IMG/VR virus record: IMGVR_UViG_3300049489_000540
Direction: 5' to 3' (one strand)
Source of the DNA: a virus
Lineage: Duplodnaviria; Heunggongvirae; Uroviricota; Caudoviricetes
Length of the DNA: 64,000 bases
A program made the translations under genes and the position numbers. Positions 32,741 through 62,753 of the stretch are shown in pieces. Positions within the stretch are counted from its first letter, which is position 1, and each line of letters starts with the position of its first letter. The notes under the pieces were generated by a model. That model had not been told where the DNA came from and did no database searches. It worked only from the letters and a program-made list of their open reading frames with translations.

Positions 32741-33172
32741 TTGCATAGTTATACTACCAATCTTGAGCAGCATGTTGAGCAACTTCAAGAGTTGCTTGCA
32801 GCCGAACAAGCTGCGCACGCTCATACTAAAGTCTGGTCTGATCAGCGTATTGTACTATCATATAAAGCGTACTATATAATCATAACGACACTTAAATCAC
32901 GCATACGATCCAGAGAACTAACACGGGCTGGCGCAAAAGAATGTTTCCGCAACAGAAGATTTACATTATCCGATCAATTGAAAATTATAGGAAGATATTA
33001 CGATGCCAATTTCTATGCCTTTATAAACAGTCTCGATGATGTCTTAAATATACAACTTTCAATATCCAATGTAAAACCCATAAAAAGTTCAGATGGAATT
33101 CATTATAATTACACCGTATCAAATTACACAGAAATATATCTCTACATGAAATCACATGCCGTATACACATGA
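32741..33172 (+). CDS. family-1 protein
   Basis: N-term MHSYTTNLEQHVEQLQELLAAEQAAHAHTKVW. Confidence 0.65.
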   Translation: MHSYTTNLEQHVEQLQELLAAEQAAHAHTKVWSDQRIVLSYKAYYIIITTLKSRIRSRELTRAGAKECFRNRRFTLSDQLKIIGRYYDANFYAFINSLDDVLNIQLSISNVKPIKSSDGIHYNYTVSNYTEIYLYMKSHAVYT

Positions 33173-33551
33173 TCTAGAAAAGCATATTGACGAGTTGCAA
33201 GAGTTGCTTGCAGCCGAACAAGAGCGTTCCAAGTGGCTGGAAGCCTGGGCGGATCAACGAGTCAATTATGGTAAGAAATTTTACTCGATGGTCGCAAACG
33301 TTGGCTACATGCACATACAATCCGCATATTTTACAAAATCCATTGCTAGGTCGTTTTTTTCGCCGGAATTACCACCACCAAGTAATCGTTTATCGACACT
33401 ATTGTCTACATATTTTACTGCTTCGATAAGTGAGAAAAATCTTGTGTCACTTCATTTGATTATAGGCTACCAGAAAATATTCCGTAGAGTTAACCGTCCT
33501 ACATATATTGAAACAAAATCAAAAGAAATATTGCTGTACAAGAAATTTTAA
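33156..33551 (+). CDS. family-1 protein
   Basis: N-term MPYTHDLEKHIDELQELLAAEQERSKWLEAW. Confidence 0.65.
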   Translation: MPYTHDLEKHIDELQELLAAEQERSKWLEAWADQRVNYGKKFYSMVANVGYMHIQSAYFTKSIARSFFSPELPPPSNRLSTLLSTYFTASISEKNLVSLHLIIGYQKIFRRVNRPTYIETKSKEILLYKKF

Positions 33552-33967
33552 GTCGATTGATTTATGTTTTTGATATGAGTATGAATAAGTTTTCTGGTGA
33601 GTTTCGGACACCAATGTATCATGGCAGCTTCGAATTCTTCCTCAATATACTTCTTCATTGAACGAATATCATGTGATTCAACTATGTCTTTCATTGGATT
33701 GATGCTGTTCAAATAAAAAGACTTAATTCTGCATTTACCAGTTCTTTTTTCTTCTGCTAAAATAGCAAATGTACAAACCGATGATTTGAAAATATGTTGA
33801 ACGCTTGGTCTTTCAAAGTCTGGTGATGGTGAAAATGTATCTGGTCCCACATACCATTCAGGTAGCAGCGCCCCAAGCAAGAAAGCATATTCTTCACATA
33901 ATGTGGACTTTTCTTGAAGTTCCTCAATATGACTTTCAAGTTGCTGAATATACGCATCTTTTGACAT
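33548..33967 (-). CDS. family-1 protein
   Basis: MSKDAYIQQLESHIEELQEKSTLCEEY from an internal Met; ATGA overlap with the convergent gene end. Confidence 0.55.
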   Translation of the reverse strand: MSKDAYIQQLESHIEELQEKSTLCEEYAFLLGALLPEWYVGPDTFSPSPDFERPSVQHIFKSSVCTFAILAEEKRTGKCRIKSFYLNSINPMKDIVESHDIRSMKKYIEEEFEAAMIHWCPKLTRKLIHTHIKNINQST

Positions 33968-34085
33968 GGTAAGCATCCTAGCATCTTTGTCGCACATATC
34001 AAGCGTGTCATCCACTATCGGCTTTAAAAAACTTTATGGTGGCTATTTCAGAATATGATGATAAGGTCCGCAGCACGGAGGACGT

Positions 34086-35142: not shown

Positions 35143-35586
35143 ATGAGTACCATTACGGAAACCATCAACGAAATCAGCCAAGCCGCCAAGCCGCGCCAGG
35201 AAATGCGCGTCATCAAGTCGATCCAGCCAGGGCAGATGATCCGCCAAGGCGACATCTATCTCGTCTGCATCAGCGGCATGACGGACATCAAGGTGTTCGA
35301 CAACATCAAGGTCACCGTCGCTGAATACACCAAGCCCGTCAAGACCAACAAGAAGCATCACCAGCTTGTGCCTGGCTCCACCATGGGCAGCCGCCACATG
35401 GTCGATTCCAAGGTCATGATGTCGCTCAACCCCACCAACAAGAGCAGCCTCGTCGGTCCCATCTTACGCTCGGTCGAAGCGTTCGAAGTGACCCACCCCG
35501 AACACGCTCACTTCCGCATGCCCGCTGGTGAATACCTCGTCTGCTACCAGTTGAACGACAAGACGAAGGAACGGGTCAAGGACTAA
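35143..35586 (+). CDS. hypothetical protein (GC-rich)
   Basis: 147-aa ORF, ~55% GC. Confidence 0.55.
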   Translation: MSTITETINEISQAAKPRQEMRVIKSIQPGQMIRQGDIYLVCISGMTDIKVFDNIKVTVAEYTKPVKTNKKHHQLVPGSTMGSRHMVDSKVMMSLNPTNKSSLVGPILRSVEAFEVTHPEHAHFRMPAGEYLVCYQLNDKTKERVKD

Positions 35587-35625
35587 TCGGTTCAAACGCA
35601 GCATCATAGACGCTAAAGGAAAACC

Positions 35626-36540
35626 ATGATCCAGAAGCTGACCGTTGAGCAAATCAACTTGTTCCCCCATTATGTTGAAAAGTGGACCAAGCACGGCTAC
35701 GACACTTCACCACTTGATCCCGTAGCCGTGAAGTCAGCTATCGAAAAGCTGTACACATGCGGCGGCTTGAAGCCACCCGAAAAGATTGTGTTGTGTCGCG
35801 GTCCAATCGAAGCGATCCTCACCGTCAACATGTACTTCTTCAAGAAGGAAAATCCGAAGGCGACGAAGAAGGAAATCATCGCTTTCGCCAAGAAAAACAG
35901 CGTATTCACATCATGTGGCTATGGAAGCTTCGACGCTAGCTGGGTCAGCTTCTATGATTTCTTCCAGAACGAAACCGATATCGGCAATCTGGATATCATC
36001 AATGGTATCAAGGAAACCACGCTTGCGTGTGGCTGGTATTGGGCATATTCTGATATCTGCTTCGTCAGCGAAAAGCCGTACATTCTCAAGGTCAATGATG
36101 TGAATATGCTGCATTGCGAAGATGGTCCAGCCCTGGCATATCACGACGGCACCGAATTGTATTTTTACAACGGTGTTATGATGGACAAGGAAACCATCTG
36201 CAATCACGCTTCGATCACGCCCGAGTCGATCAACAACACCGACAACGAAGAACAGAAGCGCATCAAGATCGAAATCTACGGCGTCAACAAGTACCTCGAA
36301 GATATCAAGGCTGATGTGATCGACATGGATATGGTCAAGATCAACAGCTACGACAAGGACTCCGACGCCATTCCTCGCGCACTGATCAAGGACAAGGACG
36401 GCAACCACTACCTCGTCGGCACGGACGGATCCACGGAACGCACGTACTACATGAACGTGCCGAACACCGTCAAGACTTGTGCCGCAGCCCACAACGCTAT
36501 CGCACCGCTTAAAGAGAGCAACTGCATAGCCTCGTCGTAG
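35626..36540 (+). CDS. hypothetical protein (GC-rich)
   Basis: 304-aa ORF. Confidence 0.55.
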   Translation: MIQKLTVEQINLFPHYVEKWTKHGYDTSPLDPVAVKSAIEKLYTCGGLKPPEKIVLCRGPIEAILTVNMYFFKKENPKATKKEIIAFAKKNSVFTSCGYGSFDASWVSFYDFFQNETDIGNLDIINGIKETTLACGWYWAYSDICFVSEKPYILKVNDVNMLHCEDGPALAYHDGTELYFYNGVMMDKETICNHASITPESINNTDNEEQKRIKIEIYGVNKYLEDIKADVIDMDMVKINSYDKDSDAIPRALIKDKDGNHYLVGTDGSTERTYYMNVPNTVKTCAAAHNAIAPLKESNCIASS

Positions 36541-36547
36541 TGGTCAG

Positions 36548-36817
36548 ATGAAACGCAAAAAATGCTTTCAGAACCGTCTCTGTGATGCTAGTGTCATGGA
36601 GACGGTTTATACAAAACAACTTGATAGCTGTTATGCGAAAAGGCATGATGCTGGATATATTGCTTGGATCCCAGCGAGAGATAATATTTTACACAATGTT
36701 GGAACAAATCTATGGGAAAATATCGCAGAACATATACGCAATAAAGTTTCAGCACATATACTAAAGGATATATACACAAAGTCACAGCTTGAAGCAGCTT
36801 ACGGTAACTTATTATGA
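36548..36817 (+). CDS. family-2 mini-protein (divergent body, conserved C-terminal helix)
   Basis: ends ...TKSQLEAAYGNLL; ATGA overlap with next gene. Confidence 0.6.
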   Translation: MKRKKCFQNRLCDASVMETVYTKQLDSCYAKRHDAGYIAWIPARDNILHNVGTNLWENIAEHIRNKVSAHILKDIYTKSQLEAAYGNLL

Positions 36818-37062
36818 TGATAGTGAGCGATAATGTTTGGTGTAAAATAGCACACGATATTTCGCTTCGTCTTGCTGATATTTTATCAAAAAGGGATATT
36901 GAACATTCTGCTCAATACGATGTTATTAATAATGTCAGGACATTGGTTCATAACAATGTTATAGATAATGTTAAAGACCATGTTAGTACATATGCCAGTT
37001 GTTACACAAAACCAACCAGATCACAGCTTGAAGCAGCTTACAAGGTCTTGGGGCAGATATGA
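36814..37062 (+). CDS. family-2 mini-protein
   Basis: V-x-x-N/H tetrapeptide repeats; ends TRSQLEAAYKVLGQI; ATGA overlap. Confidence 0.65.
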   Translation: MMIVSDNVWCKIAHDISLRLADILSKRDIEHSAQYDVINNVRTLVHNNVIDNVKDHVSTYASCYTKPTRSQLEAAYKVLGQI

Positions 37063-37313
37063 AACTTGTTAGCGTTTATGAAGATGTTAGTGCGAATGTT
37101 TACCAGAATGTCATGACCGCTGTCTGGGATAATATCAGGACTAATGTCAAGGATAATGTCTGGAATACTGTCAGAAATAATGTCTGGAATAATATCTGGA
37201 ATAATATCTGGAATAATACCAAGATTAATGTTGAGGATAATGTCAGGAATACTATCAGAAATGATGTCGTTGCTGATTCGCAGCTTGAAGCAGCTTACGG
37301 TAACTTGTTGTAG
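37059..37313 (+). CDS. family-2 mini-protein
   Basis: VWDNIRTNVKDNVWNTVRNNVWNNIWNNIWNN tetrapeptide repeats; ends DSQLEAAYGNLL. Confidence 0.65.
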   Translation: MKLVSVYEDVSANVYQNVMTAVWDNIRTNVKDNVWNTVRNNVWNNIWNNIWNNTKINVEDNVRNTIRNDVVADSQLEAAYGNLL

Positions 37314-37627
37314 CTCGATCGCGTCTTAAGATACATGATCACCAATAGACCAAGAGCCATTGGTGTAGAAAGCCACCATGGCATCCAATTGTTGCTGATG
37401 ATTTGGATATATTGTTCTTTACCAATAATATCTTGATTTATACTTATTGCGAGTATTCCCACAATTGTTCCAGCATCAAATCCTCGCATGTAGTCTTCTT
37501 GTACTTTTGCGGCTTTGAAGAAGAAATGTCGAAGAATAACAAATATCACAAGAAGTGTTACTATATACATATTATCACTCCTTCGGCTTTTCGACTGATG
37601 CTTTTGGTGTGTATGGCATGATGCCAC
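37295..37627 (-). CDS. small integral membrane protein
   Basis: 110 aa with 3 hydrophobic segments. Confidence 0.45.
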   Translation of the reverse strand: MASCHTHQKHQSKSRRSDNMYIVTLLVIFVILRHFFFKAAKVQEDYMRGFDAGTIVGILAISINQDIIGKEQYIQIISNNWMPWWLSTPMALGLLVIMYLKTRSSYNKLP

Positions 37628-37850
37628 CAGCGGAAGTCATCAAGAATTGCTGTCCTTGTGGATCAGTTAAAAGATATACTTTAGGAGCAGCCACCTTTGG
37701 AATAAGGTCAGTTGTGCATGACCAATCAGGCTGGATTGGTTTTGTTTGCGTTGTTGGTTCTCCTTGCAACATTAATGCCGAAAGGATAACCACGACACAT
37801 GCAGCGACAACGCCAATGGCAATCGCAGCGTCTTTTGTAATTAATGTCAT
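37575..37850 (-). CDS. single-TM protein, paralog of 44091..44369
   Basis: N-terminal TM AIAIGVVAACVVVILSAL; shared C-terminal motif GQQFLM...MPYTPKA versus GQQFMV...LPYTVPA. Confidence 0.5.
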   Translation of the reverse strand: MTLITKDAAIAIGVVAACVVVILSALMLQGEPTTQTKPIQPDWSCTTDLIPKVAAPKVYLLTDPQGQQFLMTSAGGIMPYTPKASVEKPKE

Positions 37851-37988
37851 GGTGATTCCTTGGTTATTTGAATACTATCGAAGTGTTTCTTAGCGGTGTA
37901 TACATGTATTCCGATAACGATACAACTTACCAGGCACACGACAAAAAGCGCATATGCTGATATAAGTACCATTTTCTCATACGGACTC

Positions 37989-38267
37989 TTAAGATGCATC
38001 ATTCTCTTTTTCCTTTAAAAGTTTTGCATACAACATATCTGCATGTCGTATGGCTTGAACCATATTCTTACCATAATCAGCAACAGCAATCTTGGGTCCG
38101 TAGATATGACATATCCAGCCATCTATATAGCGGCGACACCGTACCTTTTTTTTAATTTGCTGGGGGTTTATCGGTCTTGACATGTGCTTCAAATCACGGA
38201 GCATGTTGGAAACAGCCCATTCCATGTCTCGCATTTTGTGAAGCCTTCGACAGTACGCTTGATGCAT
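37989..38267 (-). CDS. hypothetical basic protein
   Basis: 92-aa ORF. Confidence 0.4.
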   Translation of the reverse strand: MHQAYCRRLHKMRDMEWAVSNMLRDLKHMSRPINPQQIKKKVRCRRYIDGWICHIYGPKIAVADYGKNMVQAIRHADMLYAKLLKEKENDAS

Positions 38268-38335: not shown

Positions 38336-38626
38336 TTAATCACCGAAAATCATTTTCTCAACATACTTTTTTGCTTCTTCAATATCAACAAATCGTATTT
38401 CATCATCATTAAATTTTAAAACACTTTCCAATCGAGGAATGAAATACCCATCTATCGTTTCAATACTGGCAATGTATGCACGACCAATCGCATAGTGCCA
38501 GGTTCCAGCTTGTGTGAGTTCTCGAAGCCACTCTGGCTTATATCGGCTCAATTCTGTTTGAGCAACGGCAAGAGCGTCTTGCAGTTCTGTATTTTGCTTC
38601 TCTAGAGAATCGGTATATTCGCTCAT
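38336..38626 (-). CDS. family-1 protein
   Basis: N-term MSEYTDSLEKQNTELQDALAVAQTELSRYKPEW. Confidence 0.65.
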   Translation of the reverse strand: MSEYTDSLEKQNTELQDALAVAQTELSRYKPEWLRELTQAGTWHYAIGRAYIASIETIDGYFIPRLESVLKFNDDEIRFVDIEEAKKYVEKMIFGD

Positions 38627-38958
38627 GCGTATCGTTTAAGTATTTCTTCTTCAAAGGCTTTCATAGCTTCTGCTGGGGTATCATATACTTTATTATGAGA
38701 TATGTTATCTATGGGTTCATCATCGCGTTTTTTGAAAAAAAGATTATATTTCCTATCTTTTTCTCGTAACCAAACCGACCCAAACGAATAATATCTTTTT
38801 CCATATAGCACATTTGTTGTGACGAATTCATAGTTTTCATCTTTGCATCGTACAGTTTTTATCCACTTGGGTTTCCATTTCGACAAGTCATGTTCAGTCT
38901 CGGCAAGCCGCTGTTCCAGTTCAAGAACATGCTGCTCTAGTGACTCGGTGTAAACCAT
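38623..38958 (-). CDS. family-1 protein
   Basis: N-term MVYTESLEQHVLELEQRLAETEHDLSKWKPKW; ATGA overlap. Confidence 0.65.
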   Translation of the reverse strand: MVYTESLEQHVLELEQRLAETEHDLSKWKPKWIKTVRCKDENYEFVTTNVLYGKRYYSFGSVWLREKDRKYNLFFKKRDDEPIDNISHNKVYDTPAEAMKAFEEEILKRYA

Positions 38959-38997
38959 AAGCAGCTATCCTATACCCTATATGCAGTTTTTCAACAA

Positions 38998-39354
38998 CTA
39001 TTTTTTAGATGTATACGGTACAACAGTACGACCATGGGCATAATTCCTCAACATATCAATGTCATAAATGGACCCACAAGGATTACAACGGTCTTTAACT
39101 GACTTATATAGTCTGCTACTGCTATATGGCGTTGGCGACGATAATGGAACCACATAAACAACGTCCAGCATCGGAACAACCACCAAATCAGCAGTAATAT
39201 TCAAAGCAGCTTCTCTAGAAACATTACCATCACAAATAACAACGAATCGTGTATTGTTTTGTAAATCTTCAACTGTCTTTTGTTGAATAGCAAGCTGCTC
39301 TTGCAGTTCCTCGATGTGTAATTCCAATTGGCGGGTATAGGATTTATGCTGCAT
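38998..39354 (-). CDS. family-1 protein
   Basis: MQHKSYTRQLELHIEELQEQLAIQQKTVEDL from an internal Met; 11-nt overlap with upstream gene. Confidence 0.55.
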   Translation of the reverse strand: MQHKSYTRQLELHIEELQEQLAIQQKTVEDLQNNTRFVVICDGNVSREAALNITADLVVVPMLDVVYVVPLSSPTPYSSSRLYKSVKDRCNPCGSIYDIDMLRNYAHGRTVVPYTSKK

Positions 39355-39667
39355 ATTTAGGTCCAAATAGCACTTCGACATGCGCTTTCGCCTCTTCAAT
39401 CGAAGTAAAAAATTTCTGCACAGGAGGACTCATATCAACATGATATTTACTGTCATCGGTTATTGATTGCCGTATGGTAGCTAAACAGATACCGTTGATC
39501 ATATATTTTGTGTACCAACTGAAAATTGCTCTTGGTGGCTGTGCAGCATCTTCCCATCGCGGAACCAATCGTTGTAGTGCTTCAACTTTAGCTTCCGATA
39601 CTGCAAGCTGCTCTTGCAGTTCTTCAATGTGCTGTTCTAGGTCCAACACATAACTCACAAAACACAT
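39344..39667 (-). CDS. family-1 protein
   Basis: N-term MCFVSYVLDLEQHIEELQEQLAVSEAKVEALQRL. Confidence 0.65.
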   Translation of the reverse strand: MCFVSYVLDLEQHIEELQEQLAVSEAKVEALQRLVPRWEDAAQPPRAIFSWYTKYMINGICLATIRQSITDDSKYHVDMSPPVQKFFTSIEEAKAHVEVLFGPKYAA

Positions 39668-40062
39668 CCTTTGAATAACACGATTTCTTTAAATGTTTCT
39701 TGCATGTACACGGTCCCATCTTCATCTTTTGCCACGCGAGTAAACCCTTGAACACGGATACACGCATGTGCAATCATGAATCCTTGTTGTATGTTTTCTG
39801 CATGCGTCACAAACATATACCATGGGAGATAGTTTGGCAATTCTGGCATATCAACTGTAAATTTACGCTTAATAAGATCATGGGCTACGGATCTTGTTAT
39901 CTCTTCACGCAATCCTGTTATTCCATGTTCTTTGGTGTAATTAATATGAAGTTCGTAGTAATACCGTGGTCTATGCCACAGCCAATCATTGGTTGCTTGC
40001 TCTTTAGCAAGCAACTCTTGTAGCTGCTCAATATGCTCTTCAAGTTGCTTCGAGTAGCTCAT
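39655..40062 (-). CDS. family-1 protein
   Basis: N-term MSYSKQLEEHIEQLQELLAKEQATNDWLW. Confidence 0.65.
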   Translation of the reverse strand: MSYSKQLEEHIEQLQELLAKEQATNDWLWHRPRYYYELHINYTKEHGITGLREEITRSVAHDLIKRKFTVDMPELPNYLPWYMFVTHAENIQQGFMIAHACIRVQGFTRVAKDEDGTVYMQETFKEIVLFKGCVL

Positions 40063-40424
40063 CGGTGTAGCTCATACATAATTTTTATATTTGTTGTTTT
40101 TGCACTCATTCCGTCAAACTCGTCATGGTTATGGTAAGGAAGAGCAACCAATGTGAGCATGAATGTTCTTATATGCTTTTTTGGAAACATAGCCATGAGA
40201 AGGAAATCTATTCCATTCTCTTTAATACTTTTCAGCATGCGAGTCATATGACTTCGAACGATGAATCGCCGTTGAGATTCTTCATCCGTTTCATGAAGCA
40301 TAACATAGTAAAAGTGTAATCTTTGCCTTTCTTTCCAGGCAATGAATGCCCGAGCCTCACTAAGCAACTCTATAAGCTGCTCGTTCTGCTTTTCCAGAGA
40401 TTCAGTGTAGGCTTTAGAGTTCAC
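40059..40424 (-). CDS. family-1 protein
   Basis: N-term MNSKAYTESLEKQNEQLIELLSEARAFIAWKE; ATGA overlap. Confidence 0.65.
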   Translation of the reverse strand: MNSKAYTESLEKQNEQLIELLSEARAFIAWKERQRLHFYYVMLHETDEESQRRFIVRSHMTRMLKSIKENGIDFLLMAMFPKKHIRTFMLTLVALPYHNHDEFDGMSAKTTNIKIMYELHR

Positions 40425-40698
40425 TTGTCTCTTTATTGGTATTACGATTAGCTATACCATAACTCGCCTCTTCGCTCCGTCGATACCGCGCCAGGTACGC
40501 ACCATATAGCCGACCTCGTTCATCTGGACTGTGTGTTGATAGTTTCCGACCCTTAATACGATCCGACAATCGACACCATTCTTCGTAGGTCATCGGTGGC
40601 AATCGTTTCAACAACGGATCATTCTTACGGTATTTAACTACCTTGACCGATCCAAGTCCCCTGGTAGCTCCTACAAAGTTGTGTGAGTGTATGCCCAT
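40414..40698 (-). CDS. hypothetical basic protein
   Basis: 94-aa ORF, Arg/Lys-rich. Confidence 0.4.
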   Translation of the reverse strand: MGIHSHNFVGATRGLGSVKVVKYRKNDPLLKRLPPMTYEEWCRLSDRIKGRKLSTHSPDERGRLYGAYLARYRRSEEASYGIANRNTNKETSEL

Positions 40699-40709
40699 AA
40701 GTTATATCT

Positions 40710-41072
40710 TTATATGTATTTTTCTTTGTACTCTTTATGAACCATATCCATAGCCTTGAAAATTTTCTCCATATGTTGTTTCACTTCGTCAAATGTTCTG
40801 AAATCACTAAATTTAAACTCCCATTTATCATCCGAAAATACTTTATATAAGTCTTCCGAGTAAGAAATACAAAATTTACTACTGGCATGTTGTCGAGTCA
40901 CAGAACAGAGAATTATTGTGGACATATATAATTTTGCTTCAAATACATTGTGTCGTGGTTTTGGATTTATGAACCACTCTGGTGTCCACCTTTCGGCTAC
41001 TGCCAGGCGCTCCGTCAAATCCTCATTCCGCCTTTCTAATTCGGCTACATACTGTTGCATGGGGGTCGGCAT
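40710..41072 (-). CDS. family-1 protein
   Basis: N-term MPTPMQQYVAELERRNEDLTERLAVAERWTPEW. Confidence 0.6.
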   Translation of the reverse strand: MPTPMQQYVAELERRNEDLTERLAVAERWTPEWFINPKPRHNVFEAKLYMSTIILCSVTRQHASSKFCISYSEDLYKVFSDDKWEFKFSDFRTFDEVKQHMEKIFKAMDMVHKEYKEKYI

Positions 41073-41460: not shown

Positions 41461-41742
41461 ATGAACATTGTTAAATACAATGCTTGTAGAGACATTTGCC
41501 TTTATCATGTCATGGATAGTGTTAAGAATGATGTTGGCATGCTTATGCATAACGAAATAGAACACAACATTACGAAGTTCGTTACCAGCCTCGTTTTCGA
41601 TAATATTGAAACTCACGTTGAGTCTTCCGTAGACGATAATGTATGGGAACCTGTATGGGATAGTATGTTCAGTAATGTTGTATGTAAAATATTTACGGAT
41701 TCACAGCTTGAAGCGGCATTTGCAGCACTGGAGCGGATATGA
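41461..41742 (+). CDS. family-2 mini-protein (array 2, gene 1)
   Basis: SD aaagga; V-x-x-x-V-x-x-N octad/tetrad repeats; ends DSQLEAAFAALERI; ATGA overlap. Confidence 0.65.
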   Translation: MNIVKYNACRDICLYHVMDSVKNDVGMLMHNEIEHNITKFVTSLVFDNIETHVESSVDDNVWEPVWDSMFSNVVCKIFTDSQLEAAFAALERI

Positions 41743-42005
41743 AATCCATTATTAACGATGTTTGCGATACTCTGGATAAGTTAGATAATGTTGAAGGTAT
41801 CAGAATATATATTCAGGAGCATGCTTCGGTGCGTGCATATAATCCAGTCTGGGACATTGTTCAGTTAACTGTCTGGGATAATGTCTGGGAGAATGTGTTA
41901 AACCATCTTGATGCTGAAATTACAAGCACATTTTGTCATATGAAATATAAAAGATTCACCAAATCACAGCTTCAAGCCGCTTACCAGGCACTGGAGCAGC
42001 TATGA
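41739..42005 (+). CDS. family-2 mini-protein
   Basis: ends KSQLQAAYQALEQL; ATGA overlap. Confidence 0.65.
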   Translation: MKSIINDVCDTLDKLDNVEGIRIYIQEHASVRAYNPVWDIVQLTVWDNVWENVLNHLDAEITSTFCHMKYKRFTKSQLQAAYQALEQL

Positions 42006-42253
42006 AGGATAATGTGAGGGTCCGTATATGGGTTGATGTTCGTAGCAACATCATAGATAATGTTTGGAGTATTCTCAAACGGATCATTAGGGAACATACT
42101 GGTGTTAACGTCAGAAATAGTGTATGGGATAATATTCCAGAGCGCACTACGGATGACATGGAGGGTCTTACGAAGCCACATATCATGCATCATCTATGTA
42201 AGTCAACGGACCAACAGCTTGAAGCTGCTTACTTAGCACTGGAGCGGATATGA
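42002..42253 (+). CDS. family-2 mini-protein
   Basis: ends DQQLEAAYLALERI; ATGA overlap. Confidence 0.65.
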   Translation: MKDNVRVRIWVDVRSNIIDNVWSILKRIIREHTGVNVRNSVWDNIPERTTDDMEGLTKPHIMHHLCKSTDQQLEAAYLALERI

Positions 42254-42513
42254 ACCAGAGCCATCATAGAGATATTGTGATACGCCATGAAATAAAGGAT
42301 TATGTTGGTAGTATTGTCAGAAGTAAAGTTATAAGTCGTTGTGTAGACAAAGTAAAAGCTAATACCTTGGGTAATGTGTATGCTGATGCTACATCACATA
42401 TTCGTGATAATGTTAGGAGTTTTATTGATACAAATACTATAGCTAATGTTGGAAAAAGATCATGTACAGATTCACAGCTTGAAGCAGCTTACCAGTCACT
42501 GGAGCAGATATGA
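42250..42513 (+). CDS. family-2 mini-protein
   Basis: ends DSQLEAAYQSLEQI; ATGA overlap. Confidence 0.65.
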   Translation: MNQSHHRDIVIRHEIKDYVGSIVRSKVISRCVDKVKANTLGNVYADATSHIRDNVRSFIDTNTIANVGKRSCTDSQLEAAYQSLEQI

Positions 42514-42767
42514 TCGAGGATTATATAAAAGATTCTGTCTTGGAAACTATTCGGTCAACAACCAGTAACCGTTTAGATTCTATTATCATGGATAAGGCTT
42601 ATGACATTATGGATATTGTCAGAGAGAATGTTTGGGATCATCTTGATGGCAGTATATGGTCTAATGTCGATATGAATGTTAGGAATCAAATATGTCATGT
42701 TGCCCGTTATCAGTTGTTCACTCATTCACAGCTTGAAGCAGCTTATACCGTATTGGAGCAGATATGA
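42510..42767 (+). CDS. family-2 mini-protein
   Basis: ends HSQLEAAYTVLEQI; ATGA overlap. Confidence 0.65.
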   Translation: MIEDYIKDSVLETIRSTTSNRLDSIIMDKAYDIMDIVRENVWDHLDGSIWSNVDMNVRNQICHVARYQLFTHSQLEAAYTVLEQI

Positions 42768-43015
42768 GTAATGCAAAAAATGAAGAAATTTTATGGTGTA
42801 AACTCTGGAATAAGATCAAACAACGAAGCTGGAGTGTTGTCGCAAATAGTAATAGGGTTCACAATGTTCATGCTCATATCTGGACCAATGTTGATAATAG
42901 GATTGATTCGTGGCTCATGAGACATATACGGTCGGAAGTTAAGGAGACTATTCGTGATCGTAGATATGCTGAATTGCAACTTGAGGCAGCTTACCAGGCA
43001 CTGGAGCAGATATGA
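42764..43015 (+). CDS. family-2 mini-protein
   Basis: ends ELQLEAAYQALEQI; ATGA overlap. Confidence 0.65.
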   Translation: MSNAKNEEILWCKLWNKIKQRSWSVVANSNRVHNVHAHIWTNVDNRIDSWLMRHIRSEVKETIRDRRYAELQLEAAYQALEQI

Positions 43016-43263
43016 AACGTATATATATCCAAGTCAACGAAAAGGTTTGGGATGCGGTTAAGAAAGCAACAGATAGGCATATAAAACAGACATTTAAATA
43101 TGGTGTAGATCCCGTCAGCAGGCATGTTGATGATGTTGTCTACGATAATGTTTGGAATAATGTCTTGATGCATATTCGTATACGAGTAAACCATTCCAAC
43201 ATACGCAGATTATATACTGATTCGCAGCTTGAAGCCGCTTATGAGTCGCTGGAGGGATTATGA
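43012..43263 (+). CDS. family-2 mini-protein
   Basis: ends DSQLEAAYESLEGL; ATGA overlap. Confidence 0.65.
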   Translation: MKRIYIQVNEKVWDAVKKATDRHIKQTFKYGVDPVSRHVDDVVYDNVWNNVLMHIRIRVNHSNIRRLYTDSQLEAAYESLEGL

Positions 43264-43505
43264 ACCGATGTGAAAATACAGCCATCAATGATGTTTGGGA
43301 TAATATCTTATACAAAGCGCGGGAAGCCGTTAGATTCAGCATCGATAATGAATTATTTGAATTTGTTGAACTTCATATCGATATGAGAGTCCACAGTAGT
43401 GTGTGGAGTAACATCGGTGCCCCGACTTTTAACATGAATTTTAAACATATAATATGCACAGATTCGCAGCTTGAAGCCGCTTACCAGGCACTGGAGCAGT
43501 TATGA
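43260..43505 (+). CDS. family-2 mini-protein
   Basis: ends DSQLEAAYQALEQL; ATGA overlap. Confidence 0.65.
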   Translation: MNRCENTAINDVWDNILYKAREAVRFSIDNELFEFVELHIDMRVHSSVWSNIGAPTFNMNFKHIICTDSQLEAAYQALEQL

Positions 43506-43789
43506 TACTGGATGATATTTTCGCGGCTACTACGAATACTTCTGAGGGTACAATTAGACATGGTGTTGCGTCCATTGCCAAGACGAGAATCAAAGATAAT
43601 GTCGATGAGAATGATTATTGGAGCGTGTGGAACAGTGTGTTGGTTAGTAGTAGGAGTAATGTTATGGATAATGTCAATGAACATATCGCTAATAATACTT
43701 TGCGCAAATTCAAATACTTTTTCAGAGATGCGTCAATTACTGATTCGCAGCTTGAGGCTGCATATGCTGCTTTAAAAACTACAACTTGA
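43502..43789 (+). CDS. family-2 mini-protein (last of array; modified C-terminus)
   Basis: ends DSQLEAAYAALKTTT; stop overlaps the duplicated promoter. Confidence 0.6.
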   Translation: MILDDIFAATTNTSEGTIRHGVASIAKTRIKDNVDENDYWSVWNSVLVSSRSNVMDNVNEHIANNTLRKFKYFFRDASITDSQLEAAYAALKTTT

Positions 43790-44419: not shown

Positions 44420-44674
44420 CTACGGTGACTCTTCCATAACTCTGTAAGCTGCTTGAAGTTGTGATTCTGTAAATGATGCGTATTCGAAATGAGCAATAGT
44501 AATAGCTCTAATGTTCCATCCAACATTATTCCAAACATTAATTCCAGTATTATCATCTATATGATCTCCGACTAAAATCCAATCATCCTCACCGACATGA
44601 GTTCTGACAGCACCGTAGCTTTTAACTCTGATACTTATCCCAACATCAGGATCTACATTATGTAGGATTTTCAT
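44420..44674 (-). CDS. family-2 mini-protein (minus array, last gene)
   Basis: ends ESQLQAAYRVMEESP. Confidence 0.6.
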   Translation of the reverse strand: MKILHNVDPDVGISIRVKSYGAVRTHVGEDDWILVGDHIDDNTGINVWNNVGWNIRAITIAHFEYASFTESQLQAAYRVMEESP

Positions 44675-44922
44675 ATCCGCTCAGTCGCTTCATAAGATGC
44701 TCGAAGCTGTGAATCAGTGAACGATGTATATCCGACAGTATCATGAACATTATTCCAGACATTGCGTTTGATATTAATCCATATATTATCATGAATATTA
44801 GCTCTGATATAAGCTCCGACATAAGTTAATGCAATAGTTTCAGCACCACGCCCGATAATACCATGTGCATTGCTCCATATATCAGCCTTGACAGTTTCCA
44901 AGACACTATTTTTAACTCTCAT
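44671..44922 (-). CDS. family-2 mini-protein
   Basis: ends DSQLRASYEATERI; ATGA overlap. Confidence 0.65.
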   Translation of the reverse strand: MRVKNSVLETVKADIWSNAHGIIGRGAETIALTYVGAYIRANIHDNIWINIKRNVWNNVHDTVGYTSFTDSQLRASYEATERI

Positions 44923-45158
44923 ATCCGCTCCAATGCTTCAAATGCCGCTTCAAGTTGTGATTCGACATTCTTTTTACTAATGAATGTAGACGAAACCACA
45001 TGTCCGATATTGCGTCTGACATGATCTATGACATTAGCACTGACATTATTAAATATATTATTCGTGACAATGTGCATGATGTCAGCACCAACATGATTCT
45101 CGGCATTATCAAAGCCATTTTGTAAGATCCGGTTTTTGACAAGATTCCTGACATTCAT
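44919..45158 (-). CDS. family-2 mini-protein
   Basis: ends VESQLEAAFEALERI; ATGA overlap. Confidence 0.65.
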   Translation of the reverse strand: MNVRNLVKNRILQNGFDNAENHVGADIMHIVTNNIFNNVSANVIDHVRRNIGHVVSSTFISKKNVESQLEAAFEALERI

Positions 45159-45394
45159 ATCTGCTCCAATGCTGCATAAGCACCTTCAAGCTGCGAATTG
45201 GTACATGAATTTCTTTTAAACCTAGTCTTGACCGTATCTCTAACATTCATATAGAAATTGGTTCTGACATTGGCTCTGACATGAAACCAGACCTTACCTT
45301 GAAGATTATTTCTGACATTATTCTTGATATAAGACCATGTACTGTCTCTGACATCACTTCTAATATCTTTTGTAATACCTAGCATAATACTCAT
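45155..45394 (-). CDS. family-2 mini-protein
   Basis: ends TNSQLEGAYAALEQI; ATGA overlap. Confidence 0.65.
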   Translation of the reverse strand: MSIMLGITKDIRSDVRDSTWSYIKNNVRNNLQGKVWFHVRANVRTNFYMNVRDTVKTRFKRNSCTNSQLEGAYAALEQI

Positions 45395-45672
45395 ATTTTC
45401 TCCATTGCTGCATACGCTGCTTCAAGCTGCGAATACATGTGTGGTAGTCCGCGTCCGTAGTTGAATCTATTTCTGACATCCTCCCAAACACGATCACCCA
45501 CATTAGCCCATACATTGACTCTGACAGTATTTCTAACATTCATAAAAATAAGAGCAATATTACCATTATTATTTTTATCTATACAAATATCAGCTTTATA
45601 TCGGGCAAGCTTTAAGACAGTATAATCGACACTACCCCAAATATTATCCCAGACATATTCATCTGTACTCAT
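45391..45672 (-). CDS. family-2 mini-protein
   Basis: ends MYSQLEAAYAAMEKI; ATGA overlap. Confidence 0.65.
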   Translation of the reverse strand: MSTDEYVWDNIWGSVDYTVLKLARYKADICIDKNNNGNIALIFMNVRNTVRVNVWANVGDRVWEDVRNRFNYGRGLPHMYSQLEAAYAAMEKI

Positions 45673-45914
45673 ATCCGCTCCAATGCTGCATAAGCGGCTT
45701 CAAGTTGCGAATCATCATGTAGTGATTTGAATGCGAAATTATCTACAGTATCATAATAAACATGACTACCGACATTAGCCCATACGGTATCTCTGACAGT
45801 ATTTCTGATATTAATATAAACATCATTAACATATTCACACTTATCAGCTTTAGATCGAGCAACACCAAAGACATTATCTCTGACATCTTTCCAGCAATTA
45901 TGTCCAAACATCAT
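45669..45914 (-). CDS. family-2 mini-protein
   Basis: ends DDSQLEAAYAALERI; ATGA overlap. Confidence 0.65.
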   Translation of the reverse strand: MMFGHNCWKDVRDNVFGVARSKADKCEYVNDVYINIRNTVRDTVWANVGSHVYYDTVDNFAFKSLHDDSQLEAAYAALERI

Positions 45915-46162
45915 AGCTGCTCCAGTGCTTCGTAAGCTGCTTCAAGCTGCTGGTTTGTATATACTTTACGAATAGTATAACTTTTAACATACATTCTGGC
46001 ATTACTCCTGACATTATCGGAGACATTGGTACTGACAAATGCTAAAATATAATCCACAGCATCGGCTCTGACGCCAATCTCAACATTACTCGCAGAATTT
46101 ATCCTGGCTTGAGCCTTAATACTATCCCAGACATAAGCCAAAACAGATTTATCTACTCTCAT
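45911..46162 (-). CDS. family-2 mini-protein
   Basis: ends NQQLEAAYEALEQL; ATGA overlap. Confidence 0.65.
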   Translation of the reverse strand: MRVDKSVLAYVWDSIKAQARINSASNVEIGVRADAVDYILAFVSTNVSDNVRSNARMYVKSYTIRKVYTNQQLEAAYEALEQL

Positions 46163-46476
46163 ATTTGCTCCAGTGACTTGTAAGCGGCTTCAATCTGCGA
46201 ATCACATTCACATTCAATTTTATATTCAAGATTGGTGTCAACATGTTTAGCCACATGAGCATAAATGTGAGCCTCAACACCAAGCCAAACATTTCTTTCA
46301 ACACGCTCCCAAATATTACTCTCAACAAGGTTGAAGATAGATAGCTTGGTTTGTTTAAAAACAACAGCCTTAGCGGTATGTCCAATGTCAGACCAGACAT
46401 TGACCCGAACATCGTTACGGACAACATGCATGTTGCTACACCTATCGTTGCATTTAAGCTTACGAGTATTCTTCAA
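46159..46476 (-). CDS. family-2 mini-protein (true start may be the internal Met at 46431)
   Basis: ends CDSQIEAAYKSLEQI; NVWxxV repeats. Confidence 0.6.
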   Translation of the reverse strand: MKNTRKLKCNDRCSNMHVVRNDVRVNVWSDIGHTAKAVVFKQTKLSIFNLVESNIWERVERNVWLGVEAHIYAHVAKHVDTNLEYKIECECDSQIEAAYKSLEQI

Positions 46477-46535
46477 AAAGTCAACAATGACTTTTTAAAG
46501 TACCTATGAATGTAAACACATGCAGCTAAAGGTGT

Positions 46536-46844
46536 TTATTCCAATGCGGCATAAGCAGCTTCGAGTTGACTTTCGATATTTGGTGTGTTGAGGAAATTAC
46601 CTCTGATATTTCCGTCAACATTATTACTGACATTTTCAATAACATTATCCCAAACATTCCTATTTACATGAATCTTAACATTATCAAAAACACGAACATT
46701 GGTATTATTCTTGACATGATTCCTGGTACGATTCTTGACACTATCCCAAACCTTTGTCATGACATCGTTCCAGACAGCATTTTTGACATGAAGCCTGGTA
46801 CTGATCTTCATGACATCGTTCCAGACAGCATTTTTGACACTCAT
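46536..46844 (-). CDS. family-2 mini-protein (first gene of minus array; internal 31-nt duplication)
   Basis: ends IESQLEAAYAALE; the VKNAVWNDVM segment appears twice because of the direct repeat catgacatcgttccagacagcatttttgaca; ATGA overlap with the regulator gene. Confidence 0.6.
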   Translation of the reverse strand: MSVKNAVWNDVMKISTRLHVKNAVWNDVMTKVWDSVKNRTRNHVKNNTNVRVFDNVKIHVNRNVWDNVIENVSNNVDGNIRGNFLNTPNIESQLEAAYAALE

Positions 46845-50554: not shown

Positions 50555-50830
50555 TTATTTTTCAGTAACTATTTTATAAGCTGCTTCAAGCTGCGAATCC
50601 GTGAACAATTCATTACTAACATACCCACTGACGCAAGCCCAAACAATGGTCCCAATAATATCCCATACTCTACCTCCAATATTCCTTCGAATATTCGCAC
50701 CAACCAGATCGACAATATCGTTCTCGACACGATACATAACACAATTATACGCCATATCACCGCACTGGTTCCGCACATCACAACCAACATTAAGAACATT
50801 TACAAACACATCCGTTCGTAATTGCTTCAT
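50555..50830 (-). CDS. family-2 mini-protein
   Basis: ends FTDSQLEAAYKIVTEK. Confidence 0.6.
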   Translation of the reverse strand: MKQLRTDVFVNVLNVGCDVRNQCGDMAYNCVMYRVENDIVDLVGANIRRNIGGRVWDIIGTIVWACVSGYVSNELFTDSQLEAAYKIVTEK

Positions 50831-51102
50831 AGCTGCTCCAGTGACTCATAAGCTGCTTCAAGCTGTGAATCCGTATGTGTGTTAGCTTTGATATTATTCC
50901 AAACATGAACATAGACCCTATCCTTGACACTACGTTTGATATTGGTCAACGTATGATCCCGCATATGAGTCAAAGCATAATTCCAAACAGCAGCCTTGGA
51001 ATTACTTTTGACGGCATTCCAGCCGCTGTCCCCGACATATTTCCTGACTAATAAATGAATAGGCGCACTACAAATCATGTCTTCAATAAAGTCACTACTC
51101 AT
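50827..51102 (-). CDS. family-2 mini-protein
   Basis: ends HTDSQLEAAYESLEQL; ATGA overlap. Confidence 0.65.
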   Translation of the reverse strand: MSSDFIEDMICSAPIHLLVRKYVGDSGWNAVKSNSKAAVWNYALTHMRDHTLTNIKRSVKDRVYVHVWNNIKANTHTDSQLEAAYESLEQL

Positions 51103-51401
51103 AGCCGCTCCAATGCCATATATGCTGCTTCAAGCTGCGACTTGGTTACTCTCGCTTCCATATCTTCCACACCAATGTCCCAAATATCATCCCTGATAGC
51201 ATCAATACGCTCGGTAGCATTCCAGACGTTCTCCACAACGAGATTCCAAACAATATTCGTAACATTCTTACCAATATGACTATGGAACGTATTCTTGACT
51301 TTGCGTATAACGCCATCCTCAACGTGATCCCATATACGATCATTGACTCTATCAAGAGTACGCATGCCGTTATACATTACTGTCATCTTTAAAAAGAGCA
51401 A
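51099..51401 (-). CDS. family-2 mini-protein
   Basis: ends TKSQLEAAYMALERL; ATGA overlap. Confidence 0.65.
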   Translation of the reverse strand: MLFLKMTVMYNGMRTLDRVNDRIWDHVEDGVIRKVKNTFHSHIGKNVTNIVWNLVVENVWNATERIDAIRDDIWDIGVEDMEARVTKSQLEAAYMALERL

Positions 51402-53041: not shown

Positions 53042-53165
53042 CTATCAAACCGTCTATTTTTTAGAGTCTATTTTGTAGCTGCTTATTTTGTAGCCTTCTA
53101 TTTTGATACATCTATTTTCGCTCGTCTATTTTGAGCCTTCTATTTTCAGCTTACTATTTTTAGAG
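53042..53165. repeat. array of ~9 direct 12-14-nt repeats TCTATTTT(G/T)(A/T)GCC (iteron-like)
   Basis: gtctatttttt agagtctattttgtagc tgcttattttgtagcc ttctattttgataca tctattttcgctcg tctattttgagcc ttctattttcagc ttactattttt; non-coding, at the AT-rich/GC-rich boundary. Confidence 0.7.
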
Positions 53166-53299
53166 AACTATATCTAGTACCCTTCCAAACACTATTCTAT
53201 ATATGGTATGTTCTTATTTATAAAAGATCCCGTGGTTTTTATAAGAGTGCAACTGCCAGCTACTTACAACTACTTGCAACTACCATTATCCCATACCAG

Positions 53300-54040
53300 G
53301 CAATAGACGAAAGAGAGAGGCACTAGAAAGGGCTTGTTCAGTTCCATAGGAAGGCTCATAGATAAAAGAAATAGAACATGCCTCTGGTCGAGTCAGAGAG
53401 GTTACTTCATAGGTCGCTGGATAGGCTGCTGATAGGCTGCTGGTGAAGCTGCTTGTCAAGTTGCTGGATAGGCTGCTGGATAAGCCGCTGGCATAGCTAC
53501 GAACCAAGCTGCTTCTTTCTCGTAAGTATACCTCAAGCAGCTTATACGCCCCTTCCGAGTAACTGAAAAATCCGCCAGGAAATCGGACCAGCAGCTTTAT
53601 AGGGGTCCAAAAGAACCCCTTATGAGCCGCTTGAAGTGATTTCGAGTCCTTGAAAAATCGGAAGGACTTGTCAAGCGGCTTTTCCAGTGTATGACACAGC
53701 CGCTTGGACCAGCAACGTGTAGTGTACCTGGCGGGCGGAACTTTGCAAGCGACTTCCCTGCCGCTCGAAAGCTGCTGTGTGACACACTCGCCCAGGTCCA
53801 TGACACAGCGGACACGCCGGTCCAGGCTGCTCTTGAGAGCAGACTAAGCCACTTACCATGCTCTTGCGAGCAGCTATGCAGTCCCCGTATAGCCGCTTGC
53901 TAGTCCCTCCAAGGACTTACAGGAAATAACACAATACCTGCTATCGGACAAATCGACTGTCAAGCCGCTCGGAAGGGAATGGAAAACTGCTCGGAAGCTG
54001 CTGGCAGAGTGACACACCGGATACGCCCGCCTGGACCTGG
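53300..54040. repeat. non-coding GC-rich zone dense in AAGC(N)GCTT / TCAAGCGGC motifs in both orientations (iteron-like; relics of the family-2 junction repeat)
   Basis: e.g. caagcagcttatacg 53531, gagccgcttgaag 53622, tgtcaagcggctt 53668, cagccgcttgg 53697, tagccgcttgc 53887, tgtcaagccgct 53957; the track ORFs here translate to low-complexity junk. Confidence 0.55.
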
Positions 54041-62709: not shown

Positions 62710-62714
62710 TCGTT

Positions 62715-62752: not shown

Positions 62753-62753
62753 T

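What the first reader, a model, noticed from the sequence alone, without database searches (positions are those of the whole stretch)
37095..37275. Nested 12-nt microsatellite-like periodicity inside the family-2 cassettes
The variable bodies consist of degenerate 12-nt tandem units, for example gtctggaataat / atctggaataat repeated through 37140-37215, which encode the phi-x-x-N tetrapeptides. Such tracts are prone to slipped-strand mispairing and unequal crossover. That offers a built-in way to vary repeat number and sequence rapidly within each cassette, as in contingency loci.
Basis: seen in the sequence. Interest (0 to 1): 0.65.

Follow-up and report, generated by a model that had tools for sequence, protein, structure and literature searches.

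The report
Tetrapeptide-repeat gene in a phage
The 12-base rhythm is real and is the coding imprint of a small phage protein built from about 16 four-residue (Asn-Val/Ile-x-x) units, a repeat type otherwise found inside uncharacterised DUF6745 proteins. Relatives gain and lose whole units, but nothing shows it is an on/off contingency switch.

Summary
Bases 37083-37274 are 16 head-to-tail, indel-free 12-nt units. This is the strongest 12-nt periodicity in the 64-kb window (lag-12 identity 0.65 against a window mean of 0.29). The units lie in frame in an 84-aa gene (37059-37313, +) and encode N-[V/I]-x-[N/D].

The gene is the most regular of 24 small paralogs (73-105 aa, tail SQLEAAYxALEQI) in four tandem clusters. 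It lies two genes downstream of a DUF6745 gene that lacks the central tetrapeptide array its bacterial and prophage homologs carry (12-72 units).

Units in the target are more alike at synonymous sites than codon usage predicts (third-position identity 0.82 against 0.47). In a related phage contig, 22 of 23 paralogs have lengths that are exact multiples of 4 aa. In a Dehalococcoidia genome, three DUF6745 paralogs have identical flanking domains but arrays of 29.75, 30.75 and 32.75 units. Unit gain and loss therefore happens in this repeat class.

It is not a contingency locus. Changes are in frame, only three units are perfect, and two assemblies are identical. The function is unknown. No paper in the searchable library mentions DUF6745.

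The parts
37059..37313 (+). Target gene, 84 aa: MKLVSVYEDVSANVYQNVMTAVWDNIRTNVKDNVWNTVRNNVWNNIWNNIWNNTKINVEDNVRNTIRNDVVADSQLEAAYGNLL*
   Evidence: ORF list. Its ATG overlaps the stop of the upstream paralog (ATGA). The exact protein is called on a Logan contig. It is the best window match to the HMM of the L078 family (E 4.6e-24). AF2 predicts one long helix, pLDDT 88, pTM 0.39.
37083..37274 (+). Array of 16 in-frame 12-nt units (consensus AAT GTC WGG AAT = N-V-W/R-N)
37131..37262 (+). Core of the array (units 5-15). Most core units differ by 0-4 nt (unit 12 by up to 6). Edge units 1-4 and 16 differ from the core by 3-9 nt.
   Evidence: Unit distance matrix.
37183..37218 (+). Only perfect period-12 tract (36 nt, 3 units). 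This is the place where slippage is most plausible.
37275..37313 (+). Conserved family tail DSQLEAAYGNLL plus stop. In internal genes of a cluster, the tail DNA (..CTGGAGCAGATATGA) also carries a GGAG and the overlapping ATG of the next gene.
   Evidence: Tail DNA alignment of the 24 paralogs. Third positions vary while first and second positions are fixed, as expected for coding sequence.
36548..37062 (+). Two upstream paralogs (89 and 82 aa) in the same overlapping mini-operon, with degenerate arrays
35626..36540 (+). DUF6745 protein (304 aa) with N- and C-domains but without the central tetrapeptide array of its homologs
   Evidence: Pfam PF20530, E 1.7e-27. Comparison with array-bearing homologs. 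AF2 pLDDT 91. No solved structural relative.
35143..35586 (+). 147-aa protein that accompanies the array-less DUF6745 gene in related phage contigs
   Evidence: 53% identity to the neighbour of DUF6745 in L083. Also adjacent in L080, L084 and L085.
41461..43789 (+). Cluster of 9 paralogs with ATGA overlaps
44420..46844 (-). Cluster of 9 paralogs. The gene at 46536-46844 is the second most periodic stretch in the window.
50555..51377 (-). Cluster of 3 paralogs

Best explanation
The 12-nt periodicity is the coding imprint of a tetrapeptide-repeat protein.

Shown:
- The 84-aa gene 37059-37313 has a body of 16 in-frame N-[V/I]-x-[N/D] units, followed by the family tail SQLEAAY.
- It belongs to a phage family of free-standing array proteins: 24 paralogs here and at least 23 in a related contig.
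- These arrays match, by profile and by pattern, the central V-x-[D/A/N]-[S/Q/N] arrays of DUF6745 proteins.
- Their genes sit next to an array-less DUF6745 gene.

Inferred:
- The arrays evolve as coding minisatellites. Replication slippage or unequal recombination between 12-nt units adds, removes and homogenises whole units (concerted evolution).
- The scaffold codons (AAT GTC) therefore stay uniform within a lineage, while the two x positions stay diverse. The diversity is probably kept by selection on an exposed surface of what AlphaFold predicts to be a long helix.
- The target gene is the youngest and least decayed array in this window. Most of its paralogs are old arrays at mutational equilibrium.
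- Unit changes alter length and surface in frame. They do not switch expression.
For: Periodicity and frame.

DNA-level excess over the protein requirement in the target: lag-12 identity 0.639 against 0.519 +/- 0.023 under synonymous resampling (0 of 5000 reach it). Third-position identity is 0.817 against 0.466. Asn is AAT in 18 of 18 codons, and Val is GTC or GTT only. The per-gene table shows the target as the outlier.

Family: 24 paralogs with a conserved tail. All 24 match the L078 family HMM.

Link to DUF6745:
- The exhaustive profile search gave 768 hits. Of the 127 listed hits of 200 aa or more, 115 have the DUF6745 C-domain and 83 also the N-domain. Their arrays have 12-72 units, median 37.
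- The window's DUF6745 protein lacks the array.
- The synteny of an array-less DUF6745 gene with small array genes recurs in L078, L080, L081/L082 and L083.

Unit gain and loss:
- L078 paralog lengths are 68-96 aa in steps of 4; 22 of 23 are 0 mod 4, binomial P about 1e-12.
- L027 neighbours share the junction but have about 5 and about 10 units.
- Dehalococcoidia paralogs have 0 differences in 78 + 214 flanking residues, with arrays of 29.75, 30.75 and 32.75 units. One differs from another by a single VEDS unit.
- A Marinacidobacterales paralog is 3 units shorter than its siblings.

Concerted evolution with variable x positions:
- Synonymous codons are frozen differently in each lineage: L078 AATGTC in 271 of 281 units, L027 AATGTT in 13 of 13, L031 GTG, L033 GTC/GAT/TCC, L029 CTC.
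- Heterozygosity is 0.5-0.67 at the x nucleotides and 0-0.2 at 4-fold sites.
- Non-array genes of L078 use GTC for only 16 of 48 Val codons.
Against: - No direct evidence of ongoing instability in this phage. The only other assembly of the locus is identical, and only 3 units are perfect.
- The similarity to DUF6745 arrays rests on a short periodic pattern and could be convergent. HMMER E-values for repeats are inflated by summing units.
- The helix prediction comes from a 24-paralog alignment and has pTM 0.39. A strict 4-residue hydrophobic period does not fit canonical coiled coils.
- The function of both partners is unknown.
- High diversity at x positions with frozen synonymous sites could also reflect targeted mutation rather than selection.
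Confidence: 0.75

Rival explanations
1. Pure protein-level constraint. The DNA periodicity is only what a tetrapeptide-repeat protein plus codon bias must produce, with no DNA-level repeat dynamics (no slippage or unequal crossover).
For: For most of the 23 other paralogs, synonymous resampling explains the lag-12 signal (z_syn from -1.8 to 3.2). In those genes the Val third position is as variable as the x positions (heterozygosity 0.59). AAT and GAT are the preferred codons in this AT-rich region anyway.
Against: In the target, z_syn is 5 and third-position identity is 0.82 against 0.47. L078 arrays use GTC in 96% of N-V units, against 33% of Val codons in non-array genes of the same contig. 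Whole-unit length differences occur among paralogs whose flanks are identical.
Confidence: 0.12
2. A true contingency locus: a hypermutable tract that varies at high frequency within a phage population and provides rapid adaptive switching.
For: A perfect 36-nt period-12 tract is present. The repeat class changes unit number on evolutionary time scales.
Against: The 12-nt unit keeps the frame, so no on/off switching is possible. There are only 3 perfect copies and the rest of the array is 72% matched. Two assemblies are identical. The tract lies in the gene body, not in a promoter or 5' end.
Confidence: 0.07
3. Targeted mutagenesis (DGR-like or another templated diversifier) creates the variation at the x positions.
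For: Variation is confined to a few nucleotides per unit while neighbouring 4-fold sites are frozen.
Against: No reverse transcriptase domain was found in any ORF of 200 aa or more that was scanned in the window. The adenines at unit positions 1-2 are invariant and C is virtually absent at positions 7-9 in L078, unlike A-to-N mutagenesis. Tandem 12-nt units are not the architecture of a DGR variable region.
Confidence: 0.04
4. A non-coding repeat element (iterons, protein-binding array, CRISPR-like array) that merely happens to be open.
For: The periodic DNA is also open in two other frames (37144-37329 in frame +2; 37100-37222 on the minus strand).
Against: The frame that gives N-V-x-x continues into the conserved SQLEAAY tail, whose paralog alignment shows third-position wobble. 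There is start-stop overlap with the upstream gene. Twenty-four paralogs and the relatives keep the protein pattern at 25-35% identity. There is no Rfam match.
Confidence: 0.02

Closest known systems
Central tetrapeptide arrays of DUF6745 (PF20530) proteins of bacteria, prophages and some phages (for example UOF77368.1 of Caudoviricetes sp. MW202476)
   Same: Both have a strict 4-residue period with one aliphatic residue per unit, a W/R/G/E/K-rich variable position and a polar D/N/A/S position. They match each other by profile (E down to 2.5e-35). Both are linked to DUF6745: in the same polypeptide there, in the neighbouring gene here. Both arrays change by whole units.
   Different: Here the array is a free-standing protein of about 85 aa with its own conserved C-terminal tail (SQLEAAYxALEQI), amplified to 24 tandem genes. 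The adjacent DUF6745 protein has lost, or never had, the array. The units are N-V-x-N rather than V-x-D-S/Q. Neither form has a known function, and neither appears in the searchable literature.
Coding minisatellites or VNTR-type tandem-repeat proteins evolving by concerted evolution (general knowledge: for example the Ser-Asp repeats of staphylococcal Clf/Sdr adhesins, streptococcal alpha C and M proteins)
   Same: In-frame short units, homogenised at synonymous sites, with copy number varying between alleles or paralogs by slippage or unequal crossover.
   Different: The unit is a tetrapeptide with position-specific hypervariability. The proteins are small, cytoplasmic-looking phage proteins without signal or anchor. 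The many paralogs form a two-level (gene and unit) tandem hierarchy.
Simple-sequence contingency loci (Moxon-type phase-variable genes; general knowledge)
   Same: A tandem repeat inside a gene that could mutate by slipped-strand mispairing.
   Different: Contingency loci use long perfect tracts of 1-8-nt units whose changes shift the frame or the promoter spacing, giving reversible on/off switching. Here the unit is 12 nt, in frame, mostly degenerate, and no switching is possible.
Pentapeptide-repeat proteins (A[D/N]LXX, PF00805)
   Same: Short-period repeats with a conserved Asn/Asp next to an aliphatic residue.
   Different: The period here is 4, not 5. There is no Pfam match. AF2 predicts a helix, not a quadrilateral beta-helix.

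Membership tests
Coding minisatellite / tandem-repeat protein evolving by unit gain and loss | Head-to-tail units in frame within an ORF | tested here: met
   16 units with no indel at 37083-37274, in the frame of the 84-aa ORF
Coding minisatellite / tandem-repeat protein evolving by unit gain and loss | Units more alike at the DNA level than protein sequence plus codon usage require | tested here: met
   z = 5; third-position identity 0.82 against 0.47. Not met for most of the other 23 paralogs.
Coding minisatellite / tandem-repeat protein evolving by unit gain and loss | Copy number differs by whole units between close relatives or paralogs | tested here: met
   Met in related loci: L078 lengths are all multiples of 4 aa, and bacterial paralogs with identical flanks differ by 1-3 units. 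Not observable for the target itself, since the only other copy is identical.
Simple-sequence contingency locus | Repeat-number change shifts the reading frame or promoter spacing (on/off switching) | tested here: not met
   The unit is 12 nt (4 codons) and lies in the gene body
Simple-sequence contingency locus | Long perfect tract of short units | tested here: not met
   The perfect tract is 36 nt (3 units); the array overall is 72% matched
Simple-sequence contingency locus | High-frequency length heterogeneity within a population | not testable with these tools
   No read-level data. Two assemblies are identical.
DUF6745-associated tetrapeptide array | 4-residue period with one aliphatic residue and a W/R-rich variable position; profile similarity | tested here: met
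DUF6745-associated tetrapeptide array | Array inserted between the N-domain and the DUF6745 domain of one polypeptide | tested here: not met
   The array is a separate 84-aa ORF, and the neighbouring DUF6745 protein has no array
DUF6745-associated tetrapeptide array | Genomic association with a DUF6745 gene | tested here: met
   The target is the third gene downstream of the DUF6745 gene here. The same association is seen in L078, L080, L081/L082 and L083.
Pentapeptide repeat (PF00805) | 5-residue period A[D/N]LXX; Pfam match | tested here: not met
   Period 4; no Pfam hit at E of 1 or below
DGR variable region | Nearby reverse transcriptase and template repeat; adenine-specific differences | tested here: not met
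   No RT domain in the scanned ORFs of 200 aa or more. The mutation spectrum is not A-specific. The 27 kb of the source contig outside the window was not seen.
Canonical coiled coil | Heptad (3.5) or hendecad (3.67) hydrophobic period | tested here: not met
   The hydrophobic period is exactly 4.0. AF2 gives a single straight helix.

The most novel reading that the evidence does not exclude
The free-standing N-V-x-x array proteins are a phage-encoded, diversifying repertoire of recognition or decoy modules. They work in trans with the adjacent array-less DUF6745 protein, a split version of the fused bacterial and prophage proteins. The scaffold codons are kept uniform by unit turnover, while the two x positions of each unit are under diversifying selection. 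This would be a repeat-scaffold hypervariability system in phages, analogous in logic to LRR/VLR or designed repeat binders, and distinct from DGRs.
Probability: 0.2. Interest if true: 0.85.

Novelty: new variant of a known kind. Interest (0 to 1): 0.58.

Why it matters
- It turns an odd DNA rhythm into a defined object: an undescribed family of tetrapeptide-repeat proteins. It is tied to a widespread domain of unknown function (DUF6745; 768 library proteins with E up to 0.001 match the array profile).
- The arrays are the fast-evolving part of those proteins. Flanks can be identical while arrays differ by whole units, and variation is focused on a few nucleotides per unit.
- Phages of one clade have split the array off and amplified it to dozens of tandem genes.
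- If the variable positions form a binding surface, this would be a new way for phages and prophages to generate recognition diversity.
- It also gives an entry point to the function of DUF6745: test whether the small proteins bind it.

Tried and rejected
- Megablast of 35600-38000 against GenBank phages: no match.
- IMG/VR scans with the DUF6745 protein and with the family alignment: nothing confirmed.
- Metagenome scan with the tail DNA pattern: 23 loci, all chance matches or unrelated genes such as ABC-F proteins.
- Look-up of 90% clusters for ten array-bearing DUF6745 proteins: all singletons, so no near-identical length variants.
- Look-up of the JGI version of the neighbouring gene (P0012): not on record.
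- Pfam and PHROGs on the small proteins, and NCBIfam and PADLOC on the target, one other paralog and the DUF6745 protein: only sub-threshold low-complexity noise.
- Alignment A2 was too divergent for a genome scan.
- I suspected that Ma-LMM01 gp175 is the partner protein; BLASTP did not support this.
- DGR idea: rejected on mutation spectrum and absence of an RT.
- A 36-nt (12-aa) super-period: rejected. Lags 12, 24 and 36 are equal, and L078 lengths step by 4 aa, not 12.
- Uniform charge or nucleic-acid binding: rejected, since pI ranges from 4.5 to 10.2 across the paralogs.
- Literature searches for DUF6745, PF20530, and tetrapeptide repeat with phage: nothing relevant.

Full report
**1. The observation**

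Tandem Repeats Finder finds a period-12 array at 37121-37268, with 12.3 copies and 72% matches. Read in the frame of ORF 37059-37313 (+), bases 37083-37274 are 16 consecutive 12-nt units with no indel. They encode DVSA NVYQ NVMT AVWD NIRT NVKD NVWN TVRN NVWN NIWN NIWN NTKI NVED NVRN TIRN DVVA.

Identity at lags 12, 24 and 36 is 0.65-0.66; other lags give 0.18-0.37. The power spectrum peaks at period 12 and its harmonics. This is the most 12-periodic 180-nt segment of the whole 64-kb window: 0.649 against mean 0.292, sd 0.051. No codon-order shuffle out of 5000 reaches the observed value.

Two details need correcting. The quoted 12-mers occupy only 37182-37217. The perfect period-12 tract is 37183-37218, which is 3 units.

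**2. What the tract is**

The tract is the body of an 84-aa gene.
- Its ATG overlaps the stop of the upstream gene (ATGA).
- It ends with DSQLEAAYGNLL.
- A six-frame motif search finds 24 such small genes (73-105 aa) in four tandem clusters: 36548-37313 (+, 3 genes), 41461-43789 (+, 9), 44420-46844 (-, 9) and 50555-51377 (-, 3).
- The tail is conserved as protein, with wobble at third positions, so this frame is coding.
- In internal genes the tail DNA (...CTGGAGCAGATATGA) also supplies a GGAG and the overlapping start of the next gene. This suggests translational coupling.
- There is no Rfam match.
- The periodic DNA is also open in two other frames. I read this as a by-product of stop-free periodic sequence.

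**3. DNA-level or protein-level periodicity?**

I resampled synonymous codons for the same protein, using the family's codon usage. This gives lag-12 identity of 0.519 +/- 0.023 against 0.639 observed (0 of 5000 reach it). Third-position lag-12 identity is 0.817 against 0.466 expected. All 18 Asn codons are AAT. Val is GTC (8) or GTT (4), and Arg is only AGA or AGG.

The unit distance matrix shows near-identical central units: units 7, 9, 10, 11 and 14 differ by 0-2 nt. The edge units are degenerate. This is the usual shape of an array shaped by unit duplication.

The other 23 paralogs differ. Their periodicity is weak (0.29-0.48) and mostly explained by the protein alone, with z_syn between -1.8 and 3.2. 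Their Val third positions are as variable as the x positions. The target is therefore the youngest and most regular array in a family of mostly decayed arrays.

**4. Relatives**

The window is from a large phage. It carries an rIIA-like gene, a Ro/TROVE-like gene, an HNH endonuclease and an SPFH protein. It has no close GenBank relative.

The word-indexed protein search returned only the window's own proteins plus three fragments. The exhaustive profile search returned 768 proteins.
- Of the 127 listed hits of 200 aa or more, 115 carry the DUF6745 C-domain, by single-pass phmmer with the window's own DUF6745 protein.
- 83 of them also share its N-domain.
- The matching part is a central array of 12-72 tetrapeptide units, median 37, such as VWDQ VRDQ VGAQ, VRDS VWDS or VWNQ VRNQ.

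The gene just upstream of the three-gene cluster here (35626-36540) is a DUF6745 protein with both domains but no array.

Its 304-aa orthologs (50-67% identity) sit in other phage-like contigs with the same arrangement.
- L078 has 11 + 12 tandem small genes flanking the DUF6745 gene.
- L081/L082 have 5 + 4 small genes.
- L080, from a 386-kb contig, has 3.
- L083 has 1.
- A 147-aa partner protein (window 35143-35586) is also conserved next to the DUF6745 gene.

All 24 window paralogs match an HMM built from the L078 genes (E from 1e-9 to 5e-24), and the target is the best match.

I infer that these phages carry the tetrapeptide array as separate small proteins. The alternative, convergence of a short periodic pattern, cannot be excluded.

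**5. Does the repeat class really change by unit slippage?**

Yes, on evolutionary time scales.
- **(a) L078.** The 23 small genes are 68, 72, 76, 80, 84, 88, 92 or 96 aa long. 22 of 23 lengths are multiples of 4 (P about 1e-12).
- **(b) L027.** Two adjacent paralogs share the NNKVASKQLE junction but have about 5 and about 10 units.
- **(c) A Dehalococcoidia genome.** Three DUF6745 paralogs have zero differences in their 78-aa N-domains and 214-aa C-domains, but arrays of 29.75, 30.75 and 32.75 units. One differs from another by a single extra VEDS unit.
- **(d) A Marinacidobacterales genome.** One of six paralogs is exactly 3 units shorter. Another has 24 of 71 array residues changed, against 0-2 changes in each flanking domain.
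- **(e) Lineage-specific synonymous codons.** Each lineage freezes its own synonymous codons across the array: AATGTC in 271 of 281 L078 units, AATGTT in 13 of 13 in L027, GTG in L031, GTC/GAT/TCC in L033 and CTC in L029. Non-array genes of L078 use GTC for only 16 of 48 Val codons. This is the signature of concerted evolution by unit turnover.

**6. An unexplained feature**

Within these homogenised arrays, variation is confined to a few nucleotides.
- In the bacterial arrays the variable sites are the first base of an NGG codon (W/R/G) and the second base of GAC/GCC (D/A). Heterozygosity there is 0.5-0.67, against 0-0.2 at 4-fold sites.
- In L078 the variable sites are unit positions 7-11 (0.49-0.57), against 0.07 at the Val 4-fold site. 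The alphabets are restricted, and Ser at the first variable (x) position is always AGT, never TCN.
- The target shows the same trend more weakly.

This needs one of three things: diversifying or balancing selection at the x positions on top of unit turnover, a mutational bias, or targeted mutagenesis. A DGR-type process is unlikely. No RT domain was found in the scanned ORFs of 200 aa or more, the adenines at unit positions 1-2 are invariant, and C is absent at positions 7-9.

**7. Structure and function**

AlphaFold2, run with the 24-paralog alignment, predicts one continuous helix for the target: pLDDT 88, pTM 0.39. I treat this as tentative, because an exact 4.0-residue hydrophobic period does not fit canonical coiled coils.

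The paralogs range from pI 4.5 to 10.2.

The bacterial copies examined lie in multi-copy elements of at least 4.4 kb that also carry HNH, DNA methylase, DUF5131 and AAA_25 genes. They are probably prophages. A GenBank siphovirus with an integrase carries a fused form with an L-x-S-S array.

The function remains unknown. My working model is a variable-length, variable-surface module that acts with DUF6745.

**8. Verdict on the interpretation**

The idea that the tract can vary by slipped-strand mispairing or unequal crossover is supported for the repeat class. It is compatible with the target's DNA-level homogeneity.

The 'contingency locus' label is not supported.
- Changes are in frame.
- The perfect tract is only 3 units long.
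- Most paralogs are decayed.
- The one independent assembly (Logan SRR35532292) is 100% identical over 6255 nt.

Population-level instability is untested.

**9. Novelty**

Coding tandem repeats that evolve by concerted evolution are a known kind. This tetrapeptide type is not described in the searchable literature, in PHROGs or in Pfam beyond the flanking DUF6745 domain. The same holds for its free-standing, multi-paralog phage form, its link to DUF6745, and its position-specific hypervariability. I rate it a new variant of a known kind, with moderate to good interest.

Noticed in passing
window 32741-34015 and 38336-41072: A second family of small paralogous genes (at least 10) sharing an N-terminal motif like YTxxLExHIEELQELLA. 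It is interleaved with the tetrapeptide-array clusters.
   Followed up: no
L078 (JGI 3300020195, Ga0163150_10001276) 1151-7932: 23 tandem small genes with extremely regular (N-V-x-x)n bodies. The 12-nt unit is AATGTC-WDK-RMT: scaffold and synonymous sites are frozen (GTC in 271 of 281 units), while positions 7-11 are hypervariable with restricted alphabets. This needs selection or targeted mutation on top of unit turnover.
   Followed up: partly
L035/L036/L055 (Dehalococcoidia MAG CBDFJL01) and L042-L050 (Marinacidobacterales MAG CBDFHB01): DUF6745-plus-array genes occur in 3 and at least 6 dispersed copies per genome. They lie inside repeats of at least 4.4 kb (97-98% identity, for the Marinacidobacterales copies compared) that also carry HNH, N6/N4 DNA methylase, DUF5131 and AAA_25 genes, so they are probably multiple related prophages.
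   Followed up: partly
window 35143-35586; L080 4926-5372; L083 2209-2664; L084 5940-6386; L085 1277-1756: A conserved protein of about 148 aa (RQGD...HPEHAH...CYQLNxKTKxRVKD) always lies next to the array-less DUF6745 gene. It has no Pfam or PHROG family.
   Followed up: partly
window 35143-37313: A sharp GC contrast inside one gene string: 0.56 for the 147-aa gene, 0.50 for the DUF6745 gene and 0.35-0.37 for the three small array genes. More broadly, 54-64 kb is 0.51-0.57 GC against about 0.40 elsewhere.
   Followed up: no
window 53052-53171 and 53409-53496: Intergenic tandem repeats of 14-15 nt (about 5-6 copies) and 12/24 nt (about 6 copies), next to the HNH/treble-clef endonuclease gene at 51702-53006 (-). 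They may be regulatory or origin-like iterons.
   Followed up: no
window 37144-37329 (+, frame 2) and 37100-37222 (-): The array DNA is also open in other frames, giving MSGI- and LFQI-type repeats. The same is seen in many paralogs. It is probably an artefact of stop-free periodic sequence, but gene callers may pick these frames.
   Followed up: no
window 61339-62839: A Ro/TROVE-like RNA-binding protein gene (phrog_850; DUF7788/DUF2828) is followed directly by tRNA-Leu(TAA).
   Followed up: no
window 5461-5529 and 320-403: A perfect 30-nt repeat of 2.3 copies, and an 18/36-nt repeat inside large ORFs of unknown function.
   Followed up: no
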